Assembly: GCA_030819375.1 (NCBI GenBank)
Contig: GCA_030819375.1_4699.1
Reading direction: 5' to 3' (one strand)
Source: a phage
DNA length: 38,456 nucleotides
In this document: positions 1 through 8,273 of the stretch, piece by piece
How the letters are laid out: each line of letters begins with the position of its first letter
How positions within the stretch are numbered: the first letter of the stretch is position 1
Made by a program: the position numbers and the translations under genes
Notes under the pieces: generated by a model
What the model was told of the DNA's origin: nothing
Databases searched by the model: none
Seen by the model: the letters and a program-made list of their open reading frames with translations, nothing else

Positions 1-44
1 ACTTTGCCCTCACTTCGTTCGTCGCTGCGGTAGCCTGATGTGTA

Positions 45-170
45 CCTTAGGTTATTCCTTGATGGATAGCTTAGGTTAGCCTTAGGGGGTTGCCTTAGTT
101 AAAGCCTTAGTGCTTCACTTAGTATCAGCTTAGTAGTGTACCTTAGTAAGTCTTAGTGTCTTCTCTTAGT
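45..170. repeat. Array of ~10 CTTAG/CCTTAG short repeats spaced ~11-13 bp (left-end repeat region)
   Basis: CTTAG begins at 46,70,81,94,106,118,129,142,152,165; further scattered copies to ~600; far above chance for a pentamer. Confidence 0.6.
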
Positions 171-400
171 GATTGCACATGTAAGCATGTAAGATGCCAT
201 TAGGTCGCGGTCGGTAGACCGCTAAAGAAGGAGAATAGTAATAAGATGCAGTAGGAGGAACACCAGAAGCCTAGCCAACCTAGCCTATCCTAGCTCTGTA
301 TCTATTGCTCTTCCTTAGTCTCACACGTTAGACAACCTATGTTTATCTTAGTAGTTGTGACATGTATCACATAAATAGTCTATCTTAGTGAAACTTAGTG

Positions 401-429
401 TTGACATAGGCAATCTACAGGTATACATT
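401..429 (+). promoter_or_regulatory. Candidate host sigma70 early promoter
   Basis: TTGACA (401-406), 17-bp spacer, TACATT (424-429); upstream of early genes, analogous to T7 A promoters. Confidence 0.35.
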
Positions 430-552
430 AGCAATCAGTCGGGAGCGACATTAAATACTTAGGGTGAATGATGGAGAGCGTCCTTAACTATCCGGCCTAG
501 CTACTGAAGCCGTTAAACAATGTTAACTAGTGGAAGATGGCGCAAGCATAAC

Positions 553-626
553 CTGCCACGATAAACCAAGGTTAGCGCAACGCTCTTTAACAACTTGCTT
601 AGTGTAACCTATGTATGCCGTGGTTA
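553..626 (+). promoter_or_regulatory. Putative RNase III-type processing hairpin in early transcript (copy 1)
   Basis: Imperfect long inverted repeat (ccacg...cgtgg, aggtta...taacct) enclosing CGCTCTTTAACAA (581-593); same motif recurs at 1208-1220. Confidence 0.3.
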
Positions 627-652
627 ATTACTTATTGAATGAGGAATTAACT

Positions 653-772
653 ATGAGTTTAGCAACGATGAGTTACGAAGAAATGTATGAAGTTTACTTC
701 AACTCCGCTGAGGGAGGCGAGGAAGTCTTATCTTATGCTGAGTTTGTGGAGGTTTATCATGATTCTGAATAA
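653..772 (+). CDS. Small acidic hypothetical early protein (39 aa), below ORF-track cutoff
   Basis: ATG 653 preceded by GAGGA with 7-nt spacing; ORF MSLATMSYEEMYEVYFNSAEGGEEVLSYAEFVEVYHDSE; first ORF after the processing-site-like hairpin. Confidence 0.4.
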   Translation: MSLATMSYEEMYEVYFNSAEGGEEVLSYAEFVEVYHDSE

Positions 773-914
773 CCGCGAATTATCCGTTCTCTTCACCTTG
801 TTATGCTATATGATACATAAAGGTGAGCTGCTCACTAATGATGAGCAAGCCTTGTATGCCCGATTCATCAATGACGGTTGGGTAGATAGCGTAAACAAGA
901 AGGAGAAAGCATAA
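759..914 (+). CDS. Hypothetical early protein (ORF track 687..914; start 759 preferred)
   Basis: Track ORF frame; ATG 759 has GGAGG 7 nt upstream, ATG 687 has no RBS; hydrophobic N-terminal segment. Confidence 0.45.
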   Translation: MILNNRELSVLFTLLCYMIHKGELLTNDEQALYARFINDGWVDSVNKKEKA

Positions 915-1138
915 TGTATCAGCATGAAGTGTTCTTCGAATCAGCTAGTGAAGCTCTCCGCTTCCATGATGATATGATGCAAGCTGGCGTAGGTGTTGAT
1001 GTGTATCACTATTTGATAGATTACGACACTGAATATCACCGAGTTACCTTAGTATCTGAGTATGACAACCAAGTCATTACTGAGTATCTAGGTAGTGAAG
1101 ATTACGATTACGATGAAGTAATCACGACAAATCTCTAA
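914..1138 (+). CDS. Hypothetical early protein (74 aa), acidic
   Basis: ATG overlaps upstream stop (taATG); GGAG RBS; ORF track. Confidence 0.55.
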   Translation: MYQHEVFFESASEALRFHDDMMQAGVGVDVYHYLIDYDTEYHRVTLVSEYDNQVITEYLGSEDYDYDEVITTNL

Positions 1139-1149
1139 ATTAACTATTG

Positions 1150-1262
1150 ATAACCACGGCATACAAGGTTACATTAAGCATCAAGACGGCGACGTCTTTA
1201 AACATCCCGCTCTTTAACAATAAGATTTGTGTCTTGATAGGTTAAACCTAGGAGATTCTCTT
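1150..1262 (+). promoter_or_regulatory. Putative RNase III-type processing site upstream of ocr (copy 2)
   Basis: CGCTCTTTAACAA at 1208-1220 followed by hairpin aggagattctcttgagtctcct; resembles the region upstream of T7 gene 0.3. Confidence 0.3.
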
Positions 1263-1308
1263 GAGTCTCCTATAGTGTAACCTAACTAACTAAATGAGGA
1301 TTAATAAC

Positions 1309-1662
1309 ATGGCTATGTCTAATATGACTTACTCTCAGGTTTACAACACCGCTCATGCTGCATTAGTTGAACGCGTATGGGATGATGCCATTGATTGTAT
1401 TGATAACGCACATGATGCAATCCATGAGGTAGCTGATAGTGCTGTACCAATCTACTATGCTGATATTTTCTCAGTGATGGCGAGTGATGGTATTGACCAC
1501 TTCTTCGAGGATTCTGGATTGATGCCAGACACTAAAGACGTAACGGTTGTCTTACAAGCCCGTATTTACGAACAGCTTACAATTGATTTGTGGGAACGTG
1601 TTCAAGATATGATTGACGCATACATAGACTCAGCCGAGGACTCAGAAGAAGAGGAAGAATAA
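1309..1662 (+). CDS. ocr: Ocr-like DNA-mimic anti-restriction protein (T7 gp0.3 homolog), 117 aa
   Basis: MAMSNMTY...[19 protein letters not shown]...[12 protein letters not shown]...[15 protein letters not shown], acidic C-terminus; near-collinear with T7 Ocr as recalled; GAGGA RBS before ATG 1309 (track start 1294 is probably too early). Confidence 0.9.
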
Positions 1663-1768
1663 GGATGGAAAAGTTATATAACTTCACCTTTTCCGACGGT
1701 GTAACCCTGAAGTGTTCCTTGCGATTTGCACAAATACGTGAGGAAGTCCTAGGAACTACATACAAACT

Positions 1769-1790
1769 ATTTAGCTGACACTATAAGAGA
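1769..1790 (+). promoter_or_regulatory. Variant phage-RNAP promoter-like sequence (ATTTAGCTGACACTATAAGAG)
   Basis: Matches phage promoter consensus except A instead of G at the predicted +1. Confidence 0.4.
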
Positions 1791-1858
1791 AGGCTTAACA
1801 GGGCGTTACTTGTTAGCGCCCGATTAAGTTTATCTCAATAAACCAAATAGGCGACTAT

Positions 1859-2743
1859 ATGACTACTGAAAACATCCTCGTTTCTGTTCGTGAAGCTGCA
1901 ACCGCTGAAATCAAGCAACACTTAGACAATATCGGCACGTCTTACCTCCGTGTCGGCGCTTGTCTGAATGAGTTGCGCGGTGACTTTGAAGGTCAAAAAG
2001 ACTTTTTGGCTTATGTAGAAGCTGAGTTCGGCATCAAGAAAGCACAATGCTACAAGCTGATGAGTGTAGCCCGTGTCTTTGAAGGAGACGAACGCTTTAA
2101 AGGTGTGGCTATGCGTGTAATGTTGGCGCTTGTTCCTTTCGCTGATGAAAATATAATCATGGAGAAGGCCGCAGAACTTGCCGCAGATGGTAAGCTTGAC
2201 ACTAATGCCGTAAACGCCCTGATTGAGCCTAAGAAAGAGCCAAAATCCGAAACGGTACAACCCAAGGCTGAGCCTGTAAAACCGCAGGAGAACGCTACTG
2301 AGGCCGCAGAAACGCAGGAAACGCAAGCGCCGCAGGCAGTACCGCCAATGCGTGAGCCTGACACCGACGAATCTGCACCGTGGGAAGATGAAAGCAAGCC
2401 GGAAGCGCCTAAGGCCGCGCCACTGGATAACACGGCTAACACCGAGAATGCCGCTATGGCTGGCCTGTTGGCACAAATTAAGGCACTGACTGAGCAATTA
2501 CAGGCGGCTAACGATCGCATCGCTGCCCTAACTAGTGCACGTGAAAGCAAGAAGGCAGCCGCACCTATACTTCCTCAGTTCAAATCTAAATGTTTCTATG
2601 CTCGCTTAGGTTTGAGTGCGGAGGAGGCAGAGAAGAAAACAGCAGTAAACAAGGCTCGCCGCGAACTGGTTAAATTGGGGTATGGTGAAGGTCATGAGGC
2701 ATGGGCTTTAATCTCTGAGGCAGTAGAAGAATTAACTAAGTAA
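1859..2743 (+). CDS. Hypothetical early protein (294 aa) with a P/E/A/K/Q-rich low-complexity linker; in the slot T7 uses for gp0.7 but no kinase motifs seen
   Basis: Long ORF in the early region; structured N- and C-terminal parts flank an acidic/proline-rich central region. Confidence 0.7.
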   Translation: MTTENILVSVREAATAEIKQHLDNIGTSYLRVGACLNELRGDFEGQKDFLAYVEAEFGIKKAQCYKLMSVARVFEGDERFKGVAMRVMLALVPFADENIIMEKAAELAADGKLDTNAVNALIEPKKEPKSETVQPKAEPVKPQENATEAAETQETQAPQAVPPMREPDTDESAPWEDESKPEAPKAAPLDNTANTENAAMAGLLAQIKALTEQLQAANDRIAALTSARESKKAAAPILPQFKSKCFYARLGLSAEEAEKKTAVNKARRELVKLGYGEGHEAWALISEAVEELTK

Positions 2744-2800
2744 TCTTATCGGTGGCATCTTCTTAGGTGTCACCTATTAAGGTTTCTTTTAGGAGGACAG

Positions 2801-3176
2801 ATGAGACTTAACATAGAAAGATTTGGTTATAAGGTAGGCTCACATGGAACTATCTTAGGTAAAACAGGAAGACCATTAAGGCAGCATTCTAATGGTGTAG
2901 GTTATTTAGTTGTTCCACTCTTGATAGAAGGCAGAAGGTAGAAATTATGTTAACCACAAAGATGGTAATAAATGGAATAATAAGGCTACTAATCTAGCGT
3001 GGTGTACTAATCAAGAGAATGGCCTACATCATAGGAAAGGTTACATACCAAACATCCAAGAAATAATAGCCAATGCAATAGAGTTACATATGCAAGGTTA
3101 CTCCTATAAAGAGATAGATGCTCGATTAGGGATTTATAAAGGCGCTGCTAGGCGATACATTAATGGCATAAGATGA
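2801..3176 (+). pseudogene. Degraded HNH homing endonuclease (frameshift plus internal deletion)
   Basis: Frame 1 (2801-2941) encodes an N-terminal GY..G...GYLVV motif then stops; the +1 frame (2928-3176) encodes VNHKDGNKWNNKATNLAWCTNQENGLH plus a C-terminal HTH-like tail; the HRLVA..FIPNP segment present in the intact paralog 9556..10035 is missing. Confidence 0.55.
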
Positions 3177-3232
3177 TTATTTGAGAGTATCTAACATTAG
3201 GTACTCAATTAATAACCAATGGAGCCTGATTT

Positions 3233-5860
3233 ATGAAAGATTTATACGAAACCCAACTCATGTTAGAGGAAGAGATGTTCTCTGGTGGTATCCGTCGCTT
3301 TGAAGCGGACCAACAACGCCAGATTGCATCCGGTAATGAATCAGACACGGCATGGAATCGCCGCCTATTGTCTGAGTTAATCGCACCTATGGCTGAAGGT
3401 ATTCAGGCATACAAGGAAGAGTATGAAGGTAAAAGAGGCCGTGCACCGCGTGCATTAGCTTTCATTAACTGCGTAGAAAACGAAGTGGCAGCATATATCA
3501 CGATGAAAATCGTTATGGATATGCTGAACACGGATGTAACCTTGCAGGCTATAGCCATGAATGTAGCTGACCGCATTGAGGACCAAGTACGTTTTAGCAA
3601 GCTGGAAGGTCACGCCGCCAAATACTTTGAGAAAGTTAAGAAGTCACTTAAGGCAAGTAAGACTAAATCATATCGCCATGCGCACAACGTAGCGGTCGTG
3701 GCTGAGAAGTCAGTAGCTGACCGTGACGCTGATTTCTCTCGCTGGGAGGCGTGGCCTAAAGATACCTTGCTACAAATCGGGATGACCTTGCTAGAAATAC
3801 TGGAAAATAGTGTATTCTTCAATGGTCAGCCTGTCTTTCTTCGCACCTTGCGCACTAATGGTGGCAAGCATGGCGTTTACTACTTACAGACTAGCGAACA
3901 CGTGGGTGAATGGATAACTGCATTTAAAGAGCACGTAGCTCAGCTGAGCCCAGCCTATGCGCCTTGCGTGATTCCTCCTCGTCCGTGGGTGTCACCTTTT
4001 AATGGCGGTTTTCACACTGAGAAGGTGGCAAGCCGTATTCGTCTGGTTAAAGGTAACCGCGAGCACGTCCGCAAGCTGACCAAAAAGCAAATGCCAGCGG
4101 TTTACAAGGCTGTTAACGCCTTACAAGCTACTAAGTGGCAGGTTAACAAGGAAGTATTGCAGGTAGTAGAAGATGTTATTCGTCTAGACCTCGGTTATGG
4201 TGTACCTTCCTTTAAGCCGCTCATTGACCGCGAGAACAAACCAGCTAACCCTGTTCCTCTTGAGTTCCAGCACCTGCGAGGCCGTGAACTTAAAGAGATG
4301 CTAACGCCGGAACAATGGCAAGCCTTCATCCACTGGAAAGGTGAATGTACCAAGCTGTATGCCGCTGAAACTAAGCGCGGCAGCAAGTCGGCGGCAACCT
4401 TTCGCATGGTCGGGCAGGCCCGTAAATACAGCCAGTTTGACGCAATATACTTCGTGTATGCACTGGACAGCCGCTCACGCGTTTATGCGCAATCTAGCAC
4501 ACTCTCACCGCAATCAAATGACTTAGGCAAGGCTTTACTACGCTTTACCGAAGGGCAAACCATAAACAGCACTGAGGCGCTTAAGTGGTTTTTGGTGAAC
4601 GGGGCAAATAACTGGGGCTGGGATAAGAAAACTTTTGACGTGCGTACCGCTAACGTGCTGGATGGCGAATTTCAAGACATGTGCCGCGACATTGCAGCCG
4701 ACCCGCTGACCTTCACTCAATGGGTAAATGCTGATTCCCCTTATGGCTTCCTTGCATGGTGCTTTGAATATGCGCGTTATCTGGATGCACTGGACGAAGG
4801 AACGCAAGACCAATTCATGACGCACCTACCCGTCCATCAAGATGGGAGTTGCTCTGGTATCCAGCACTATAGCGCGATGTTACGCGATGAAGTAGGTGCG
4901 AAAGCAGTAAACCTTAAGCCTTCTGACTCCCCTCAAGATATTTATGGCGCGGTTGCGCAGGTTGTTATCCAGAAGAATTACGCCTACATGAATGCAGACG
5001 ATGCAGTGACTTTCACATCCGGAAGCGTCACACTTGCAGGTGCAGAACTGCGTAGCATGGCTAGTGTGTGGGATATGATAGGAATCACTCGCGGCCTGAC
5101 CAAAAAGCCCGTAATGACCCTACCTTATGGCAGCGCACGTCTAACCTGCCGTGAGTCAGTGATTGATTATATCGTTGATTTAGAAGAAAAAGAGGCCCAA
5201 CGAGCTATTGCGGAAGGGCGTACCGCCAATCCTGTACATCCTTTTGATAATGGCCGTAAGGACAGCCTGACACCTGGCGCAGCTTATAACTATATGACAG
5301 CTTTAATCTGGCCTTCTATTTCGGAAGTGGTTAAAGCTCCTATAGTGGCAATGAAAATGATTCGTCAGCTTGCCCGTTTCGCAGCTAAAAGGAATGTAGG
5401 CTTAGAGTATACCTTGCCTACTGGCTTCATCTTGCAACAAAAGATAATGGCGACAGATATGCTCCGCGTATCTACTTGCTTGATGGGAGAAATCAAGATG
5501 AGTCTACAGATTGAAACGGACGTAGTGGATGAAACGGCTATGATGGGCGCTGCTGCTCCTAACTTTGTGCATGGTCATGATGCCAGCCACCTTATCTTAA
5601 CAGTCTGCGACCTTGTTGATAAAGGGATTACATCTATCGCAGTCATTCATGATTCTTTCGGTACTCACGCAGGTCGTACAGCCGATCTACGTGATAGTCT
5701 AAGGGCAGAAATGGTGAAGATGTATCAAGGCCGTAATGCATTGCAAAGCCTGCTAGATGAGCACGAAGAACGCTGGTTAGTTGATACTGGAATCCAAGTG
5801 CCAGAGCAAGGAGAGTTTGACCTTAACGAAATCTTAGTATCTGACTATTGCTTCGCATAA
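3233..5860 (+). CDS. Single-subunit DNA-dependent RNA polymerase (T7 gene 1 family), 875 aa
   Basis: Length and C-terminal ...[13 protein letters not shown] resemble the T7 RNAP terminus (recalled ...NLRDILESDFAFA); conserved palm motifs; matching promoters throughout the window. Confidence 0.97.
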
Positions 5861-5868
5861 TATTAATA

Positions 5869-5899
5869 GGCCATTCCTTCGGGAGTGGCCTTTTCTTTT
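5869..5899 (+). terminator. Intrinsic terminator after the RNAP gene
   Basis: 9-bp GC-rich stem ggccattcc/ggagtggcc with UUCG tetraloop, followed by TTTTCTTTT. Confidence 0.8.
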
Positions 5900-5935
5900 A
5901 CCTACTACCGGTAAAAAATTTCATTAACATAAAGT

Positions 5936-5951
5936 GTCTCACATGTGAGAC
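5936..5951. repeat. GTCTCACATGTGAGAC palindromic hairpin element (copy 1)
   Basis: Perfect 16-bp palindrome immediately upstream of the promoter at 5954. Confidence 0.8.
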
Positions 5952-5953
5952 TT

Positions 5954-5976
5954 ATTTACCGGACACTATAGGATAG
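5954..5976 (+). promoter_or_regulatory. Phage-RNAP promoter (ATTTACCGGACACTATAGG)
   Basis: Matches the recurring consensus; predicted +1 G at 5971. Confidence 0.75.
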
Positions 5977-6117
5977 CCGTCGGAGACGGGAAAGAAAGGG
6001 AAGATAAAGGATATAAAAGGAAGTAATAGGTATTAAAGGTTATATAGGTTATCTAGGAATACCTATTACCTTCTTCCTTCCTCTTATTACCACTTAGAGG
6101 AAGGGCAGATCTAGGTT

Positions 6118-6133
6118 GTCTCACATGTGAGAC
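6118..6133. repeat. GTCTCACATGTGAGAC palindromic hairpin element (copy 2)
   Basis: Perfect 16-bp palindrome immediately upstream of the promoter-like sequence at 6139. Confidence 0.8.
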
Positions 6134-6138
6134 TTCGT

Positions 6139-6161
6139 ATTTACCGGACAGTATAGATAAG
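6139..6161 (+). promoter_or_regulatory. Variant phage promoter-like sequence (ATTTACCGGACAGTATAGATA)
   Basis: Consensus with C-to-G change in the CACTATA core; arranged in tandem with 5954 like the paired promoters at the T7 primary origin. Confidence 0.45.
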
Positions 6162-6186
6162 ACTAACTTACTTTGGAGATTTAACC

Positions 6187-6264
6187 ATGCGTAACTTTGA
6201 GAAGATGACCCGTAAAGCTAACCGTTTGACATGGAAGAAGGGCAGAAGAAAGGCAAGAAGTTGA
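6187..6264 (+). CDS. Small basic peptide (25 aa, MRNFEKMTRKANRLTWKKGRRKARS), T7 gene 1.1-like position
   Basis: GGAGA RBS 7 nt upstream of ATG 6187; below ORF-track cutoff; lies between the tandem promoters and the primase gene. Confidence 0.3.
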   Translation: MRNFEKMTRKANRLTWKKGRRKARS

Positions 6265-6284
6265 ATGCGTGGGAGTTCTAAGTT

Positions 6285-8273
6285 ATGGCTATTATTCAGA
6301 ATGTACCGTGTCCTGCTTGCCAAAAGAACGGACATGATATTACTGGCAATCATTTAATGATCTTTGACGACGGGGCAGGATACTGTAATCGTGGTCACTT
6401 CCATGATAACGGTAAACCTTATTACCACAAGCCGGAAGGTGGCATCGAGATAACCGAGTTACCTATTACTGGCAATATCAAATATACACCTTCTCAATTC
6501 AAAGAAATGGAGAAGGAAGGGAAGATAAGCGACCCTAAATTACGTGCCATCGCACTAGGTGGTATGCGTATGAAAGACCGTTGGGAGGTCATGAATGAGC
6601 AAGAAAGGGCAGACCAAGAAGCAGAGTGGAAACTTGATGTTGAATGGTTCCTCACGCTTAAGCGTAAGAACCTTGTTTCCCGACACATTCGCGGTGACAT
6701 TTGCGCATTGTATGATGTACGTGTCGGACACGATGAAGAGGGTAGAGTCACGCGGCATTACTATCCACGCTTCGAGCAAGGTGAGCTAGTAGGAGCTAAG
6801 TGTCGCACATTACCTAAAGACTTTAAGTTTGGTCATTTAGGTAAACTCTTTGGTATGCAAGATCTTTTCGGGATGAATACTTTGTCTCACGTGTTAGACA
6901 GGGGAAGACGAAAGGATTGCTTGCTTATTGTGGGTGGGGAACTGGATGCGCTAGCAGCGCAGCAGATGCTCCTTGATTCTGCCAAGGGTACTAAGTGGGA
7001 AGGTCAACCTTACCATGTATGGTCTGTTAACAAAGGGGAGTCTTGCCTTGAAGAGATTGTACAGAACCGTGAACACATCGCCCAATTCAAGAAGATTATT
7101 TGGGGCTTCGATGGGGATGAGGTAGGGCAGAAGCAGAATCAGCAAGCGGCTCGCCTGTTTCCTGGTAAATCCTATATCCTTGAATACCCCTCTGGTTGCA
7201 AAGATGCTAACAAGGCATTGATGGCTGGCAAGGCTAAAGAATTTGTAGATGCATGGTTTAATGCCAAGTCATCTGATGAAGTCTTTGGTAGCCAGATTAA
7301 ATCTATCGCATCTCAAAGGGATAAGCTCAAGGCTGCACGTCCAGAGCAAGGGTTATCATGGCCTTGGCCTAAGCTGAACAAGGTAACGCTAGGTATTCGT
7401 AAGAACCAGCTTATCATTGTAGGTGCAGGCTCTGGTGTAGGTAAGACTGAGTTCCTTCGCGAAGTGGTTAAGCACCTCATTGAAGAACACGGTGAATCTG
7501 TAGGCATCATTTCTACAGAAGACCCAATGGTCAAGGTGTCCCGTGCTTTTATCGGCAAGTGGATTGATAAGCGTATTGAGTTACCGCCAACCAACGATCC
7601 GAAAGAAGACGGATACCGTGAGGTGTTCGACTACACCGAGGAAGAAGCTAACGCTGCCATTGATTATGTGGCTGATACAGGGAAGCTGTTTGTAGCTGAC
7701 CTAGAGGGTGACTATTCTATGGAGAAGGTAGAGCAAACTTGCCTAGAGTTTGAGGCTATGGGCATTTCTAATATCATCATTGATAACTTAACGGGGATTA
7801 AATTAGATGAGCGTGCTTTTGGTGGGAAGGTTGGTGCACTTGATGAATGCGTCAAGCGGATTGGTACTATCAAAGACAGACATGCAGTTACTATATTCCT
7901 TGTATCACACCTTACACGTCCTCCGGCAAACCGTACCCAACACGAAGAAGGTGGCGAGGTTATCCTTTCTGACTTCCGAGGCTCAGGGGCTATCGGATTC
8001 TGGGCATCTTACGCCTTGGGGATTGAGCGTAACACAAGAGCTGAAACGCTTGATGAAAGAACTACCACGTACATCTCATGTGTCAAAGACCGCGACCAAG
8101 GTATCTACACCGGAACCAAGATCATGCTTAAGGGTGACATTCAAACCGGACGTTTGAGAGAACCTCAAGCCCGTACTAGGTCATTTGACACAGGCGAAGC
8201 AAGGCAACAAGAAGTGCCTGATTTACCGGACACTATAGAAGAGACTAACTTCGATGAAGAAAGTGAGTTTTGA
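6285..8273 (+). CDS. DNA primase/helicase (T7 gp4-like), 662 aa
   Basis: N-terminal Cys4 zinc ribbon (CPACQ...CNRGH), Walker A GAGSGVGKT, acidic C-terminus ending ...FDEESEF. Confidence 0.95.
   Translation: MAIIQNVPCPACQKNGHDITGNHLMIFDDGAGYCNRGHFHDNGKPYYHKPEGGIEITELPITGNIKYTPSQFKEMEKEGKISDPKLRAIALGGMRMKDRWEVMNEQERADQEAEWKLDVEWFLTLKRKNLVSRHIRGDICALYDVRVGHDEEGRVTRHYYPRFEQGELVGAKCRTLPKDFKFGHLGKLFGMQDLFGMNTLSHVLDRGRRKDCLLIVGGELDALAAQQMLLDSAKGTKWEGQPYHVWSVNKGESCLEEIVQNREHIAQFKKIIWGFDGDEVGQKQNQQAARLFPGKSYILEYPSGCKDANKALMAGKAKEFVDAWFNAKSSDEVFGSQIKSIASQRDKLKAARPEQGLSWPWPKLNKVTLGIRKNQLIIVGAGSGVGKTEFLREVVKHLIEEHGESVGIISTEDPMVKVSRAFIGKWIDKRIELPPTNDPKEDGYREVFDYTEEEANAAIDYVADTGKLFVADLEGDYSMEKVEQTCLEFEAMGISNIIIDNLTGIKLDERAFGGKVGALDECVKRIGTIKDRHAVTIFLVSHLTRPPANRTQHEEGGEVILSDFRGSGAIGFWASYALGIERNTRAETLDERTTTYISCVKDRDQGIYTGTKIMLKGDIQTGRLREPQARTRSFDTGEARQQEVPDLPDTIEETNFDEESEF
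8221..8243 (+). promoter_or_regulatory. Phage promoter embedded in the 3' end of the primase/helicase gene
   Basis: ATTTACCGGACACTATAGAAGAG; +1 G at 8238; encodes DLPDTIEE in frame. Confidence 0.65.

What the first reader, a model, noticed from the sequence alone, without database searches (positions are those of the whole stretch)
553..1262. Two related processing-site-like elements flank the first early genes
The motif CGCTCTTTAACAA occurs at 581-593 and 1208-1220, each inside or next to an imperfect long hairpin, and the two ~60-bp regions share further similarity (ccacg..caaggtta). The motif resembles sequence at the RNase III site upstream of T7 gene 0.3 as I recall it. These would cut the host-RNAP early transcript into separate mRNAs.
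Basis: partly seen in the sequence, partly recalled or inferred. Interest (0 to 1): 0.45.

Follow-up and report, generated by a model that had tools for sequence, protein, structure and literature searches.

The report
rRNA-style antitermination boxes in phage early operon
The repeated 13-base motif is a perfect copy of boxA, the signal that makes the host's RNA polymerase termination-resistant on ribosomal RNA operons. Around it this SP6/K1E-like phage has built an rRNA-operon-like layout: complementary segments bracket an early gene cassette, and a T7-like RNase III hairpin sits in front of the anti-restriction gene.

Summary
CGCTCTTTAACAA occurs exactly at 581-593 and 1208-1220, with extra flanking similarity.

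The motif is not an RNase III determinant. It is a perfect rrn-type boxA, the NusB/NusE site: E. coli rrnH has TGCTCTTTAACAAT, and the published consensus is GYTCTTTAANA. T7 has the same 14-mer at 812-825, just 5' of its R0.3 hairpin. That T7 boxA is described as an antitermination element.

All 24 SP6-like early regions examined carry 2-4 boxA copies. Every copy is on the + strand, intergenic and upstream of the phage RNA polymerase gene.

The processing idea survives in a different geometry. The segment just 3' of boxA#1 (S1, 596-626) pairs over 30 bp (-49 kcal/mol) with S2 (1151-1180), just 5' of boxA#2, bracketing ORFs 653-1138. This long-range helix holds in 41 of 42 adjacent boxA pairs across five phage groups, with 13 of 31 pairs showing compensatory changes. 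The local hairpin around boxA#1 is weak and not conserved. S2 is also a sigma-70 promoter. A T7 R0.3-like two-tier hairpin lies at 1239-1283, before ocr.

Verdict: a new variant of known kinds (rrn boxA plus leader-trailer helix; T7 boxA plus R0.3). Binding and cleavage are inferred, not shown.

The parts
357..429 (+). Two sigma-70-like early promoters (GTGACA-18-TATCTT at 357-386; TTGACA-17-TACATT at 401-429). They would feed host-RNAP transcripts into boxA#1.
   Evidence: Consensus scan. In silico only.
553..580 (+). Degenerate S2-like arm (CCACG..CAAGGTTA). It can form a weak local hairpin with 596-626. It is lineage-specific and not conserved.
   Evidence: local hairpin -19.3 kcal/mol, z = -1.9. 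In most relatives homology begins only at 582. At least five different upstream contexts are seen.
581..593 (+). boxA#1 (CGCTCTTTAACAA): an rrn-type NusB/NusE binding site.
   Evidence: Identical to E. coli rrnH leader boxA plus spacer and to published sequences (PMC2724277, PMC5725501).
596..626 (+). S1: the 5' strand of the long-range cassette-bracketing helix, starting 2-3 nt after boxA#1.
   Evidence: I2, I3. (-49.4 kcal/mol). (covariation). (present in the MFE of the 895-nt transcript)..
653..1138 (+). Cargo of the helix: three small early ORFs (653-772, 759-914, 914-1138) of unknown function.
   Evidence: PHROG families 2061, 9275 and 6403.
1147..1175 (+). Sigma-70-like promoter embedded in S2 (TTGATA-17-TACATT; TTGACA in 13 of 15 aligned relatives). 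Predicted start is about 1182.
   Evidence: The -35 hexamer is conserved although it lies outside the helix (alignment A1).
1151..1180 (+). S2: the 3' strand of the long-range helix, 12 nt after the cassette stop codon and 27 nt before boxA#2.
1183..1198 (+). Small hairpin AAGACG-GCGA-CGTCTT in the position of rrn boxB (5' of boxA). It is not universal among relatives.
   Evidence: it forms in the long fold. (present in many Vectrevirus; absent in Klebsiella phages and SP6).
1208..1220 (+). boxA#2 (CGCTCTTTAACAA, followed by T). The 14-mer is identical to T7 812-825.
1221..1241 (+). Orphan 'type B' S1 remnant (TTTGTGTCTTGATAGG). Its partner strand is missing from this genome, so it is a relic of a deleted cassette. 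Locally it forms a 6-bp hairpin at 1221-1236.
   Evidence: the same sequence is the 5' strand of a helix in K1E, K1-5 and others.. (no complementary partner anywhere in the window). (relatives carry 200-600 bp more here)..
1239..1283 (+). Two-tier hairpin: 6-bp lower stem AGGUUA/UAACCU, internal loop, 10-bp upper stem, tetraloop. It is the structural counterpart of T7 RNase III site R0.3 and lies directly upstream of the ocr ribosome-binding site.
   Evidence: Same architecture with different upper-stem sequences in K1E, SP6, Klebsiella and Proteus phages, and in T7 R0.3.
1309..1662 (+). ocr-like anti-restriction gene, the T7 gene 0.3 homologue (MAMSNMTY...).
   Evidence: PHROG 2568, E = 5e-49. 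Annotations of relatives.
1769..1785 (+). First phage-RNAP promoter (ATTTAGCTGACACTATA). It marks the end of the stretch that only host RNAP can transcribe. Both boxA lie upstream of it.
   Evidence: 11 promoter matches against 0.15 expected.

Best explanation
The repeated motif is boxA, the RNA signal on which E. coli NusB/NusE(S10) nucleate the rRNA-type antitermination complex with NusA, NusG and SuhB. The phage places one boxA at the head of each early transcription module that only host RNA polymerase reads.

Proposed sequence of events:
1. Host RNAP starts at the early promoters (about 357-429) and transcribes boxA#1 (581-593). It becomes pause- and Rho-resistant.
2. The boxA RNA stays tethered to the polymerase, which keeps the adjoining S1 segment (596-626) near the RNA exit.
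3. About 555 nt later S2 (1151-1180) emerges, and a 30-bp S1:S2 helix forms around the three-gene cassette.
4. RNase III cuts this helix, as it cuts the 16S and 23S leader-trailer helices. This excises a cassette mRNA with base-paired ends.
5. The cut disconnects boxA#1 from the nascent RNA. boxA#2, 27 nt downstream, re-arms the polymerase.
6. As DNA, S2 is also a sigma-70 promoter whose transcripts meet boxA#2 at about +26.
7. The two-tier hairpin at 1239-1283, the counterpart of T7 R0.3, is cut by RNase III to give the 5' end of the ocr mRNA.

Shown here: motif identity, placement, complementarity, covariation and conservation. Inferred: Nus-factor binding, tethering and RNase III cleavage.
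For: Motif identity
- The motif equals E. coli rrnH boxA plus spacer.
- It matches the published rrn boxA-spacer 'ugcucuuuaacaauuua' (PMC2724277) and the consensus GYTCTTTAANA (PMC5725501). The window has 2 matches against 0.21 expected.
- T7 has the same 14-mer between promoter A3 and R0.3. The T7 boxA is described as an anti-termination element whose mutation makes Gp2 dispensable (PMC3709561, citing Savalia 2010).

Placement
- All 24 SP6-like loci have 2-4 boxA. All are on the + strand, intergenic and upstream of the RNAP gene.
- In the window both lie before the first phage promoter.

Long-range helix
- The S1(n):S2(n+1) duplex is -36 to -53 kcal/mol in 41 of 42 adjacent boxA pairs. Non-cognate or local pairings are mostly about -10 to -25, and shuffles average -17.
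- Type A helix: 95.1% of cells paired, 13 of 31 pairs with compensatory changes, 0 of 500 shuffles as good, and slid registers only 24-38% paired.
- Type B helix: 97.6% paired, 4 of 19 pairs with double changes.
- Non-Watson-Crick cells are G.U on the + strand 36 times against A.C 8 times. This points to + strand RNA.
- The helix appears in the MFE of the 895-nt transcript, z = -7.4.

Parallel with rrn
- E. coli rrnH has the same layout: boxA 429-440, then leader strand 442-484, which pairs with trailer 2118-2160 at -57 kcal/mol.
- The literature reports that rrnTAC tethers boxA, delivers the leader strand to its trailer partner and boosts co-transcriptional RNase III cleavage.

Local hairpin
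- The R0.3-like hairpin has z = -4 to -5. Its architecture is shared by T7 R0.3 and five phage groups, with 2-4 pair types per stem position.
Against: - No experiment is available: no Nus-factor binding data, no RNase III-dependent ends, and no transcript mapping for any SP6-like phage was found.
- One relative (L018, unit 1) lacks the S2 partner, so the helix is dispensable at least transiently.
- In this window the S2 -35 hexamer is TTGATA rather than TTGACA.
- A weak local hairpin (553-628) could compete kinetically with the long-range helix.
- T7 grows without RNase III (PMC6938266), so processing may be non-essential.
- The sequences in the alignments are related, so the shuffle statistics overstate independence. 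However, the compensatory changes occur in at least four separate lineages and in one paralogous unit.
Confidence: 0.6

Rival explanations
1. The motif is part of two equivalent local hairpins, at about 553-628 and about 1150-1262. Each is a T7-type RNase III site, and the conserved 13-mer is a recognition element for processing.
For: The same 14-mer sits next to T7 R0.3. Local hairpins can be drawn around both copies. The region 1160-1290 is strongly structured, z = -5.7.
Against: - The motif is unpaired in all folds.
- It equals boxA, which has a different known ligand.
- In T7 it lies outside the R0.3 hairpin.
- The hairpin around copy 1 is marginal (z = -1.9), and its 5' arm is missing in most relatives.
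- The CAAGAC/GTCTTG pairing around copy 2 is not present in K1E.
- Covariation tracks S1(n):S2(n+1), not local pairs. Local energies are at background level.
Confidence: 0.08
2. The boxA copies work as Nus-factor sites, but the S1:S2 helix is not an RNase III substrate. Instead it would serve as a structural clamp or insulator: protecting cassette mRNA ends from exonucleases, blocking Rho loading, or controlling translation of the first cassette gene. That last role would be analogous to Nus/boxA-dependent repression of suhB or of lambda N.
For: The helix and its covariation are solid, but nothing here shows cleavage. boxA near start codons can mediate translational repression (PMC5725501). 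S1 abuts a hairpin at 623-651 that covers the ribosome-binding site (I5).
Against: A 30-bp near-perfect RNA duplex is the canonical substrate of E. coli RNase III (established knowledge). The layout copies the rrn leader-trailer helices, which are RNase III substrates. A new boxA directly after every 3' strand is easiest to explain if the upstream boxA is cut off.
Confidence: 0.2
3. The elements are mainly DNA-level 'linker' modules. They would be conserved junctions at which SP6-like phages exchange, gain and lose early gene cassettes by homologous recombination, with no dedicated RNA function.
For: - Homology to relatives breaks exactly at the start of boxA#1.
- The same boxA+S1 is joined to at least five unrelated upstream sequences.
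- Element 2 corresponds to two units lying 200-600 bp apart in relatives.
- An orphan S1 remnant at 1221-1241 has no partner in this genome.
Against: - Recombination does not explain a perfect match to the NusB/NusE consensus.
- It does not explain strict + strand orientation, or restriction to the host-transcribed region.
- It does not explain compensatory changes with a G.U bias on one strand.
- Recombination at these sites is more likely a consequence of their conservation than their purpose.
Confidence: 0.1

Closest known systems
E. coli rrn operon antitermination and processing architecture: boxB-boxA-boxC, the leader-trailer helices around 16S and 23S, and a second boxA in the spacer
   Same: - Identical boxA sequence.
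- The 5' strand of a long helix starts 1-3 nt after boxA.
- The 3' strand lies right after the cargo, and a further boxA follows it.
- Helix stabilities are comparable: -57 kcal/mol in rrnH against -49 in the window.
- An optional small hairpin lies 5' of boxA, the rrn order.
- A UGUGU-like boxC-type motif is present in some 5' strands.
   Different: - The cargo is a 0.2-0.8 kb cluster of translated phage genes, not rRNA.
- The helices are shorter (19-31 bp).
- The 3' strand often doubles as a sigma-70 promoter.
- There are 2-4 units in tandem.
- No experimental evidence exists for Nus binding or RNase III cutting.
Phage T7 early leader: boxA (812-824) followed by RNase III site R0.3 and gene 0.3 (ocr)
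   Same: - The same 14-mer, CGCTCTTTAACAAT, lies downstream of host promoters and upstream of a two-tier hairpin and an ocr gene.
- The T7 boxA is reported as a functional anti-termination element.
- T7 early RNA is cut by RNase III at defined sites.
   Different: - T7 has a single boxA in its first 7 kb, and as far as known only local hairpin RNase III sites.
- The SP6-like phages have several boxA and long-range helices that bracket whole cassettes.
Lambda nut sites (boxA-spacer-boxB, N protein) and the nutL-RNase III hairpin-N leader
   Same: boxA-dependent modification of host RNAP on a phage early transcript. An RNase III structure lies between the nut site and the first gene (references listed).
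   Different: - Lambda boxA is the weaker CGCUCUUA and needs the N protein plus a boxB located 3' of boxA.
- Here boxA is the full rrn consensus, which works without N.
- Hairpins, where present, lie 5' of boxA.
- No N-like gene was looked for or seen.
Cellular non-rRNA boxA targets: the suhB 5' UTR and CRISPR array leaders
   Same: The consensus boxA is reused outside rRNA operons to control Rho termination or translation.
   Different: Those are single boxA elements without cassette-bracketing helices, and they are host-encoded.

Membership tests
boxA (NusB/NusE-binding element of rrn-type antitermination) | RNA sequence matching the gamma-proteobacterial consensus GYTCTTTAANA (rrn: UGCUCUUUAACAA) | tested here: met
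   582-592 and 1209-1219 match exactly, with 0.21 expected by chance. The match is 12 of 12 to rrnH GCTCTTTAACAA. The consensus is from PMC5725501.
boxA (NusB/NusE-binding element of rrn-type antitermination) | Lies in the sense strand of a transcript made by host (sigma-70) RNA polymerase, downstream of the promoter | tested here: met
   Both copies are on the + strand and downstream of sigma-70-like promoters at 357-429 and 1147-1175. Both are upstream of the first phage-RNAP promoter at 1769. Promoters are predicted, not mapped.
boxA (NusB/NusE-binding element of rrn-type antitermination) | Conserved at equivalent positions in related genomes | tested here: met
   2-4 copies in each of 24 SP6-like early regions, all on the + strand and upstream of the RNAP gene. 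Also present in T7 and T7-like contigs.
boxA (NusB/NusE-binding element of rrn-type antitermination) | Binds NusB-NusE and confers termination resistance or faster elongation | not testable with these tools
   Only indirect evidence: the identical T7 element is reported as a functional anti-termination element (PMC3709561, citing Savalia et al. 2010).
T7-type RNase III processing site (local irregular hairpin) | Stable intergenic hairpin of about 20 bp with an internal loop separating upper and lower stems | tested here: met
   Met for 1239-1283: 6-bp lower stem, internal loop, 10-bp upper stem, z = -4.0. T7 R0.3 has the same architecture.
   -19.3 kcal/mol, z = -1.9, with 7 of 200 shuffles as good. 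The 5' arm is absent from most relatives.
T7-type RNase III processing site (local irregular hairpin) | The shared 13-mer is part of the double-stranded recognition structure | tested here: not met
   The 13-mer is unpaired in all folds. In T7 it lies 5' of the R0.3 hairpin.
T7-type RNase III processing site (local irregular hairpin) | RNase III-dependent cleavage at a defined bond | not testable with these tools
   Needs rnc+ versus rnc- end mapping or an in vitro cleavage assay.
rrn-type leader-trailer helix (long-range RNase III substrate) | Two complementary segments of at least about 20 bp flank a cargo, with the 5' strand directly after boxA | tested here: met
   596-626 pairs with 1151-1180 over 30 bp, with one G.U pair and one bulge, at -49.4 kcal/mol. 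It starts 2-3 nt after boxA and is present in the MFE of the 895-nt RNA.
rrn-type leader-trailer helix (long-range RNase III substrate) | Pairing maintained by compensatory substitutions | tested here: met
   13 of 31 pairs have double changes, 95% of cells are paired and 0 of 500 shuffles do as well. A second helix type shows 4 of 19 double changes and 97.6% paired. G.U outnumbers A.C 36 to 8.
rrn-type leader-trailer helix (long-range RNase III substrate) | The cargo is a ribosomal RNA | tested here: not met
   The cargo is three protein-coding ORFs. This is therefore a functional analogue, not a member.
rrn-type leader-trailer helix (long-range RNase III substrate) | Cleaved by RNase III co-transcriptionally | not testable with these tools
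   No data available.
Lambda-type nut site | boxA followed 3' by a boxB hairpin that is bound by a phage N protein | tested here: not met
   The only small hairpin near boxA#2 (1183-1198) lies 5' of boxA and is not conserved. boxA is the full rrn consensus, which does not need N. An N-like gene was not searched for.

The most novel reading that the evidence does not exclude
SP6-like phages have turned their host-transcribed early region into a miniature rRNA operon. Each boxA would recruit the full rrn antitermination complex. That complex, by tethering boxA, would act as an RNA chaperone delivering the 5' strand to a 3' strand hundreds of nucleotides downstream. RNase III would then excise each protein-coding cassette co-transcriptionally, and a fresh boxA would re-arm the polymerase after every cut. 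The 3' strands double as sigma-70 promoters. This would be the first mRNA system shown to use the rrnTAC looping and processing mechanism. It might also speed transcription-driven genome entry or titrate Nus factors away from host rRNA synthesis.
Probability: 0.4. Interest if true: 0.75.

Novelty: new variant of a known kind. Interest (0 to 1): 0.6.

Why it matters
- It re-labels a conserved phage motif correctly, as a Nus-factor loading site rather than an RNase III signal.
- A whole subfamily of T7-supergroup phages combines it with covarying long-range helices in the arrangement so far known from ribosomal RNA operons.
- If confirmed, it offers a small, non-essential, genetically tractable system of translated mRNA cassettes. 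This could test the current model that the rRNA antitermination complex loops nascent RNA to promote long-range helix formation and RNase III cleavage.
- It bears on how these phages secure processive host transcription. In T7, from my own knowledge, host transcription also pulls the genome into the cell.
- It explains where early-region mosaic joints fall.
- It suggests portable parts (boxA plus helix arms) for insulating synthetic operons.

Tried and rejected
- Rfam scan of 1-6500 at a permissive E-value gave only chance-level hits and no family for these elements.
- From positions 820-940 alone I first concluded that T7 lacks the motif. That was wrong: reading 700-930 showed it at 812-825.
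Most of its single hits in unrelated viral contigs were not followed.
- Literature: ten full-text searches found no description of boxA or RNase III sites in SP6, K1-5 or K1E. The SP6 genome paper and Savalia 2010 are not held. I therefore cannot exclude that the SP6 or K1-5 genome papers mention boxA.
- RNAalifold on a MAFFT alignment of the pre-ocr hairpin recovered only the conserved lower stem, because the upper stems are too different to align. I replaced it with per-sequence folds anchored on the lower stem.
- Local pairing of S2(n+1) with S1(n+1), a hairpin enclosing boxA, was tested as the alternative register. It was mostly at background level, -9 to -25 kcal/mol, with two exceptions of -33 and -38 kcal/mol in relatives.
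- A leftward promoter in the reverse complement of S1 was considered and rejected. There is no acceptable -35, nothing appeared in the scan, and the G.U bias favours + strand RNA.
- A downstream partner for the post-boxA#2 segment was searched for and none was found.
Full report
**What the window is.** The first 3.3 kb match Vectrevirus phages (K1E, K1-5 and relatives; SP6-like Autographiviridae) at 85-92% identity. Three small ORFs of unknown function occupy 653-1138. An ocr-like anti-restriction gene is at 1309-1662 (PHROG 2568, E = 5e-49). An 875-aa single-subunit RNA polymerase is at 3233-5860. Sigma-70-like promoters lie at 357-386 and 401-429. The first of 11 phage-polymerase promoters is at 1769-1785. 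The finding therefore lies in the stretch that only host RNA polymerase can transcribe.

**Checking the observation.** CGCTCTTTAACAA is present exactly at 581-593 and 1208-1220 and nowhere else, even at 2 mismatches.
- The flanks share further similarity: 581-605 versus 1208-1232 is 80% identical, and TAGTGTAACCTA recurs at 600-611 and 1273-1284.
- CCACG and CAAGGTTA lie upstream of both copies.
- The local hairpin around copy 1 is marginal (553-628: -19.3 kcal/mol, z = -1.9).
- The region around copy 2 is strongly structured (1160-1290: -41.4 kcal/mol, z = -5.7).

**What the motif is.**
- It is identical to the boxA plus spacer of E. coli rRNA operons. The rrnH leader reads TGCTCTTTAACAAT, and the 16S-23S spacer has GCTCTTTAAAAA.
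- The published rrn boxA-spacer RNA is 'ugcucuuuaacaauuua', whereas lambda has the shorter CGCUCUUA (PMC2724277).
- The gamma-proteobacterial consensus used to find functional boxA elements is GYTCTTTAANA (PMC5725501). The window has exactly two matches to it against 0.21 expected.
T7 has CGCTCTTTAACAAT at 812-825, between promoter A3 and the R0.3 hairpin.
- That element is known as the T7 'boxA anti-termination element'. Mutations in it make the host-RNAP inhibitor Gp2 dispensable (PMC3709561, summarising Savalia et al. 2010).
- In T7 and in the window alike, the motif is outside the hairpin and unpaired in all folds.

The motif is therefore a NusB/NusE site, not an RNase III determinant.

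**Distribution.** I examined 24 early regions of SP6-like phages: Vectrevirus, SP6, UAB_Phi78, and Klebsiella and Proteus phages.
- Every one has 2-4 boxA.
- All are on the + strand, intergenic, immediately ahead of a gene cluster and upstream of the RNAP gene.
- Many are preceded, 20-30 nt upstream, by a near-consensus sigma-70 promoter, TTGACA-17-TACATT.
- T7-like contigs in IMG/VR show the same boxA followed by hairpins.

**The unexpected part: a long-range helix.** The segment just 3' of boxA#1 (S1, 596-626) is complementary to the segment just 5' of the boxA#2 unit (S2, 1151-1180). The duplex is 30 bp with one G.U pair and one bulged A, at -49.4 kcal/mol. It brackets the three-ORF cassette.
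- The same relation holds in 41 of 42 adjacent boxA pairs in the 24 loci, at -36 to -53 kcal/mol. Shuffles average -17 kcal/mol.
- The alternative local register, S2 with the segment after its own boxA, gives mostly -9 to -25 kcal/mol, with two higher values of -33 and -38 in relatives.
- On an alignment of 15 distinct S1/S2 pairs, 95.1% of cells pair and 13 of 31 pairs show compensatory double changes. No shuffle out of 500 reaches any measure, and sliding the register drops pairing to 24-38%.
- Examples of compensatory change: UAUGCC/GGCAUA in Vectrevirus becomes UAAGCC/GGCUUA in Klebsiella phages and SP6. CCGUGG/CCACGG becomes CCGUAG/CUACGG in Proteus phages. A paralogous unit in L013 uses GUAAUGUACC...GCCGCU with AGCGGC...GGUACAUUAC.
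- A second helix type (GGYUWGUGYCUUGRUAGGC with GCCUAYCAAGGYRCWARCC) behaves the same way: 97.6% paired, with 4 of 19 pairs showing double changes.
- Non-Watson-Crick cells are G.U on the + strand 36 times and A.C 8 times. This is as expected for pairing in + strand RNA rather than a DNA-level repeat.
- The helix is part of the MFE structure of the whole 895-nt early RNA, z = -7.4.

**S2 is bifunctional.** Its DNA is a sigma-70 promoter: TTGATA-17-TACATT in the window, and TTGACA in 13 of 15 aligned relatives. The -35 hexamer is conserved although it lies outside the helix. Transcripts starting there (about 1182) lack S2 and meet boxA#2 at about +26.

**The local RNase III-like site.** Downstream of boxA#2, 1239-1283 folds into a two-tier hairpin. 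It has a 6-bp lower stem AGGUUA/UAACCU, an internal loop, a 10-bp upper stem and a tetraloop, with z = -4.0.
- The same architecture occurs before ocr in K1E, SP6, Klebsiella and Proteus phages. The upper-stem sequences are unrelated, with 2-4 pair types per position.
- It matches T7 R0.3, which has a 9-bp upper stem, a tetraloop and a 5-6-bp lower stem.
- From my own knowledge (Dunn & Studier 1983), T7 R0.3 is cut by RNase III in the 3' side of the internal loop, at about nt 890. The held literature confirms ten RNase III sites in T7 and the order A3-R0.3.
- Half of this hairpin lies beyond the reported end coordinate of 1262.

**Comparison with rRNA operons.** In E. coli rrnH, boxA (429-440) is followed after 1 nt by the leader strand (442-484). 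That strand pairs with the trailer (2118-2160) right after 16S, at -57 kcal/mol. A second boxA follows in the spacer.
- The phage layout is the same: boxA, 5' strand, cargo, 3' strand, next boxA.
- The literature holds that leader-trailer helices are RNase III substrates and are essential for 30S biogenesis (PMC10250234).
- The boxA-bound antitermination complex tethers the leader and 'delivers' it to its downstream complement (PMC8632103).
- T7-type RNA polymerase is thought not to use Nus factors. This fits the restriction of boxA to the host-transcribed stretch.

**Evolutionary footprint.**
- For most relatives, homology to element 1 begins exactly at boxA (window 582) and then runs at 95-98% to the first gene. 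The sequence upstream of boxA takes at least five unrelated forms.
- Element 2 corresponds in many relatives to two boxA units separated by one or two extra genes (K1E has four units).
- In the window, the segment 1221-1241 is the 5' strand of a type B helix whose partner no longer exists in this genome. This is a relic of cassette loss.

**Most likely mechanism, and what is inferred.**
- Shown: motif identity, position, orientation, conservation, complementarity and covariation.
- Inferred: NusB/NusE and the other Nus factors load at each boxA and make host RNAP fast and termination-resistant. S1 stays near the polymerase and pairs with S2 when it emerges. RNase III cuts the 30-bp helix and the R0.3-like hairpin, releasing a cassette mRNA and the ocr mRNA. 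The next boxA re-arms the polymerase after the cut.
- I put 0.6 on this overall: higher (about 0.8) for the boxA assignment and lower (about 0.5) for RNase III cutting of the long-range helix.

**Novelty.** boxA in a T7 early leader is known, as are local T7 RNase III sites and rrn leader-trailer helices. In ten searches of the held literature I found no description of the following: multiple consensus boxA, each followed by the 5' strand of a covarying long-range helix that brackets protein-coding cassettes, with the 3' strand doubling as a promoter. The SP6 and K1-5 genome papers are not held, so prior mention of boxA there cannot be excluded. I rate this a new variant of a known kind, with interest 0.6.

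Noticed in passing
window 5936-5951 and 6118-6133 (partial copy at 317-339): A perfect 16-nt palindrome, GTCTCACATGTGAGAC, occurs twice. Each copy ends 2-5 nt upstream of a phage-RNAP promoter (5954, 6139). A related sequence, AGTCTCACACGTTAGACAACCTA, lies near the left end. It might be a regulator binding site or a replication or packaging signal.
   Followed up: no
window 2801-3176: An HNH endonuclease gene appears to be frameshifted, between the gp6 homologue and the RNA polymerase gene. The N-terminal part is in one frame (ORF 2801-2941). The HNH motif HKDGNKWNNKATNLAWCTNQEN is in the +1 frame. The joined translation hits Pfam HNH_3 at E = 8e-8.
   Followed up: partly
window 1769-1785, then 5954, 6139, 8221, 8912, 13101, 13564, 14710, 17893, 23070, 38412: There are eleven SP6/K1E-type phage promoters (ATTTANCNGACACTATA, up to 2 mismatches; 0.15 expected), all on the + strand. 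The first sits right after the ocr cassette and is followed by a terminator-like hairpin at 1801-1821.
   Followed up: partly
window 5869-5895: A GC-rich hairpin plus T-run (AGGCCATTCCTTCGGGAGTGGCCTTTTCTTTT) lies directly after the RNA polymerase gene. It is probably the early terminator, the counterpart of T7 TE, that boxA-modified host RNAP would meet.
   Followed up: no
window 582 (and relatives): Mosaic breakpoints of the early region coincide with boxA. The same boxA+S1 module, 95-98% identical, is joined to at least five unrelated upstream sequences in different phages. The number of boxA-bounded cassettes varies from 2 to 4.
   Followed up: partly
L018 2284-2888 (IMGVR_UViG_3300045988_002160): This is the one exception to the helix rule. 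S1 after the first boxA has no complementary S2 (-20 kcal/mol, background level). The next boxA is preceded instead by a different promoter-like sequence, TTGACAGTCATGCGTTAAGGTAGTAACCT.
   Followed up: no
viral contigs L034, L042, L055, L069, L096 and others: A recurrent, unrelated context for the consensus boxA in IMG/VR contigs: a terminator-like hairpin (AAAAAAGCGCCCTACAGGACGCTT) is immediately followed by GCTCTTTAACAATCTGG. These look like a different phage or prophage family that also uses rrn-type boxA.
   Followed up: no
window 623-651: A small hairpin (GTTAATTACTTATT / AATGAGGAATTAAC) overlaps the 3' end of S1 and covers the ribosome-binding site of the first cassette gene (ATG at 653). 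Formation of the S1:S2 helix could therefore influence its translation (I5).
   Followed up: no
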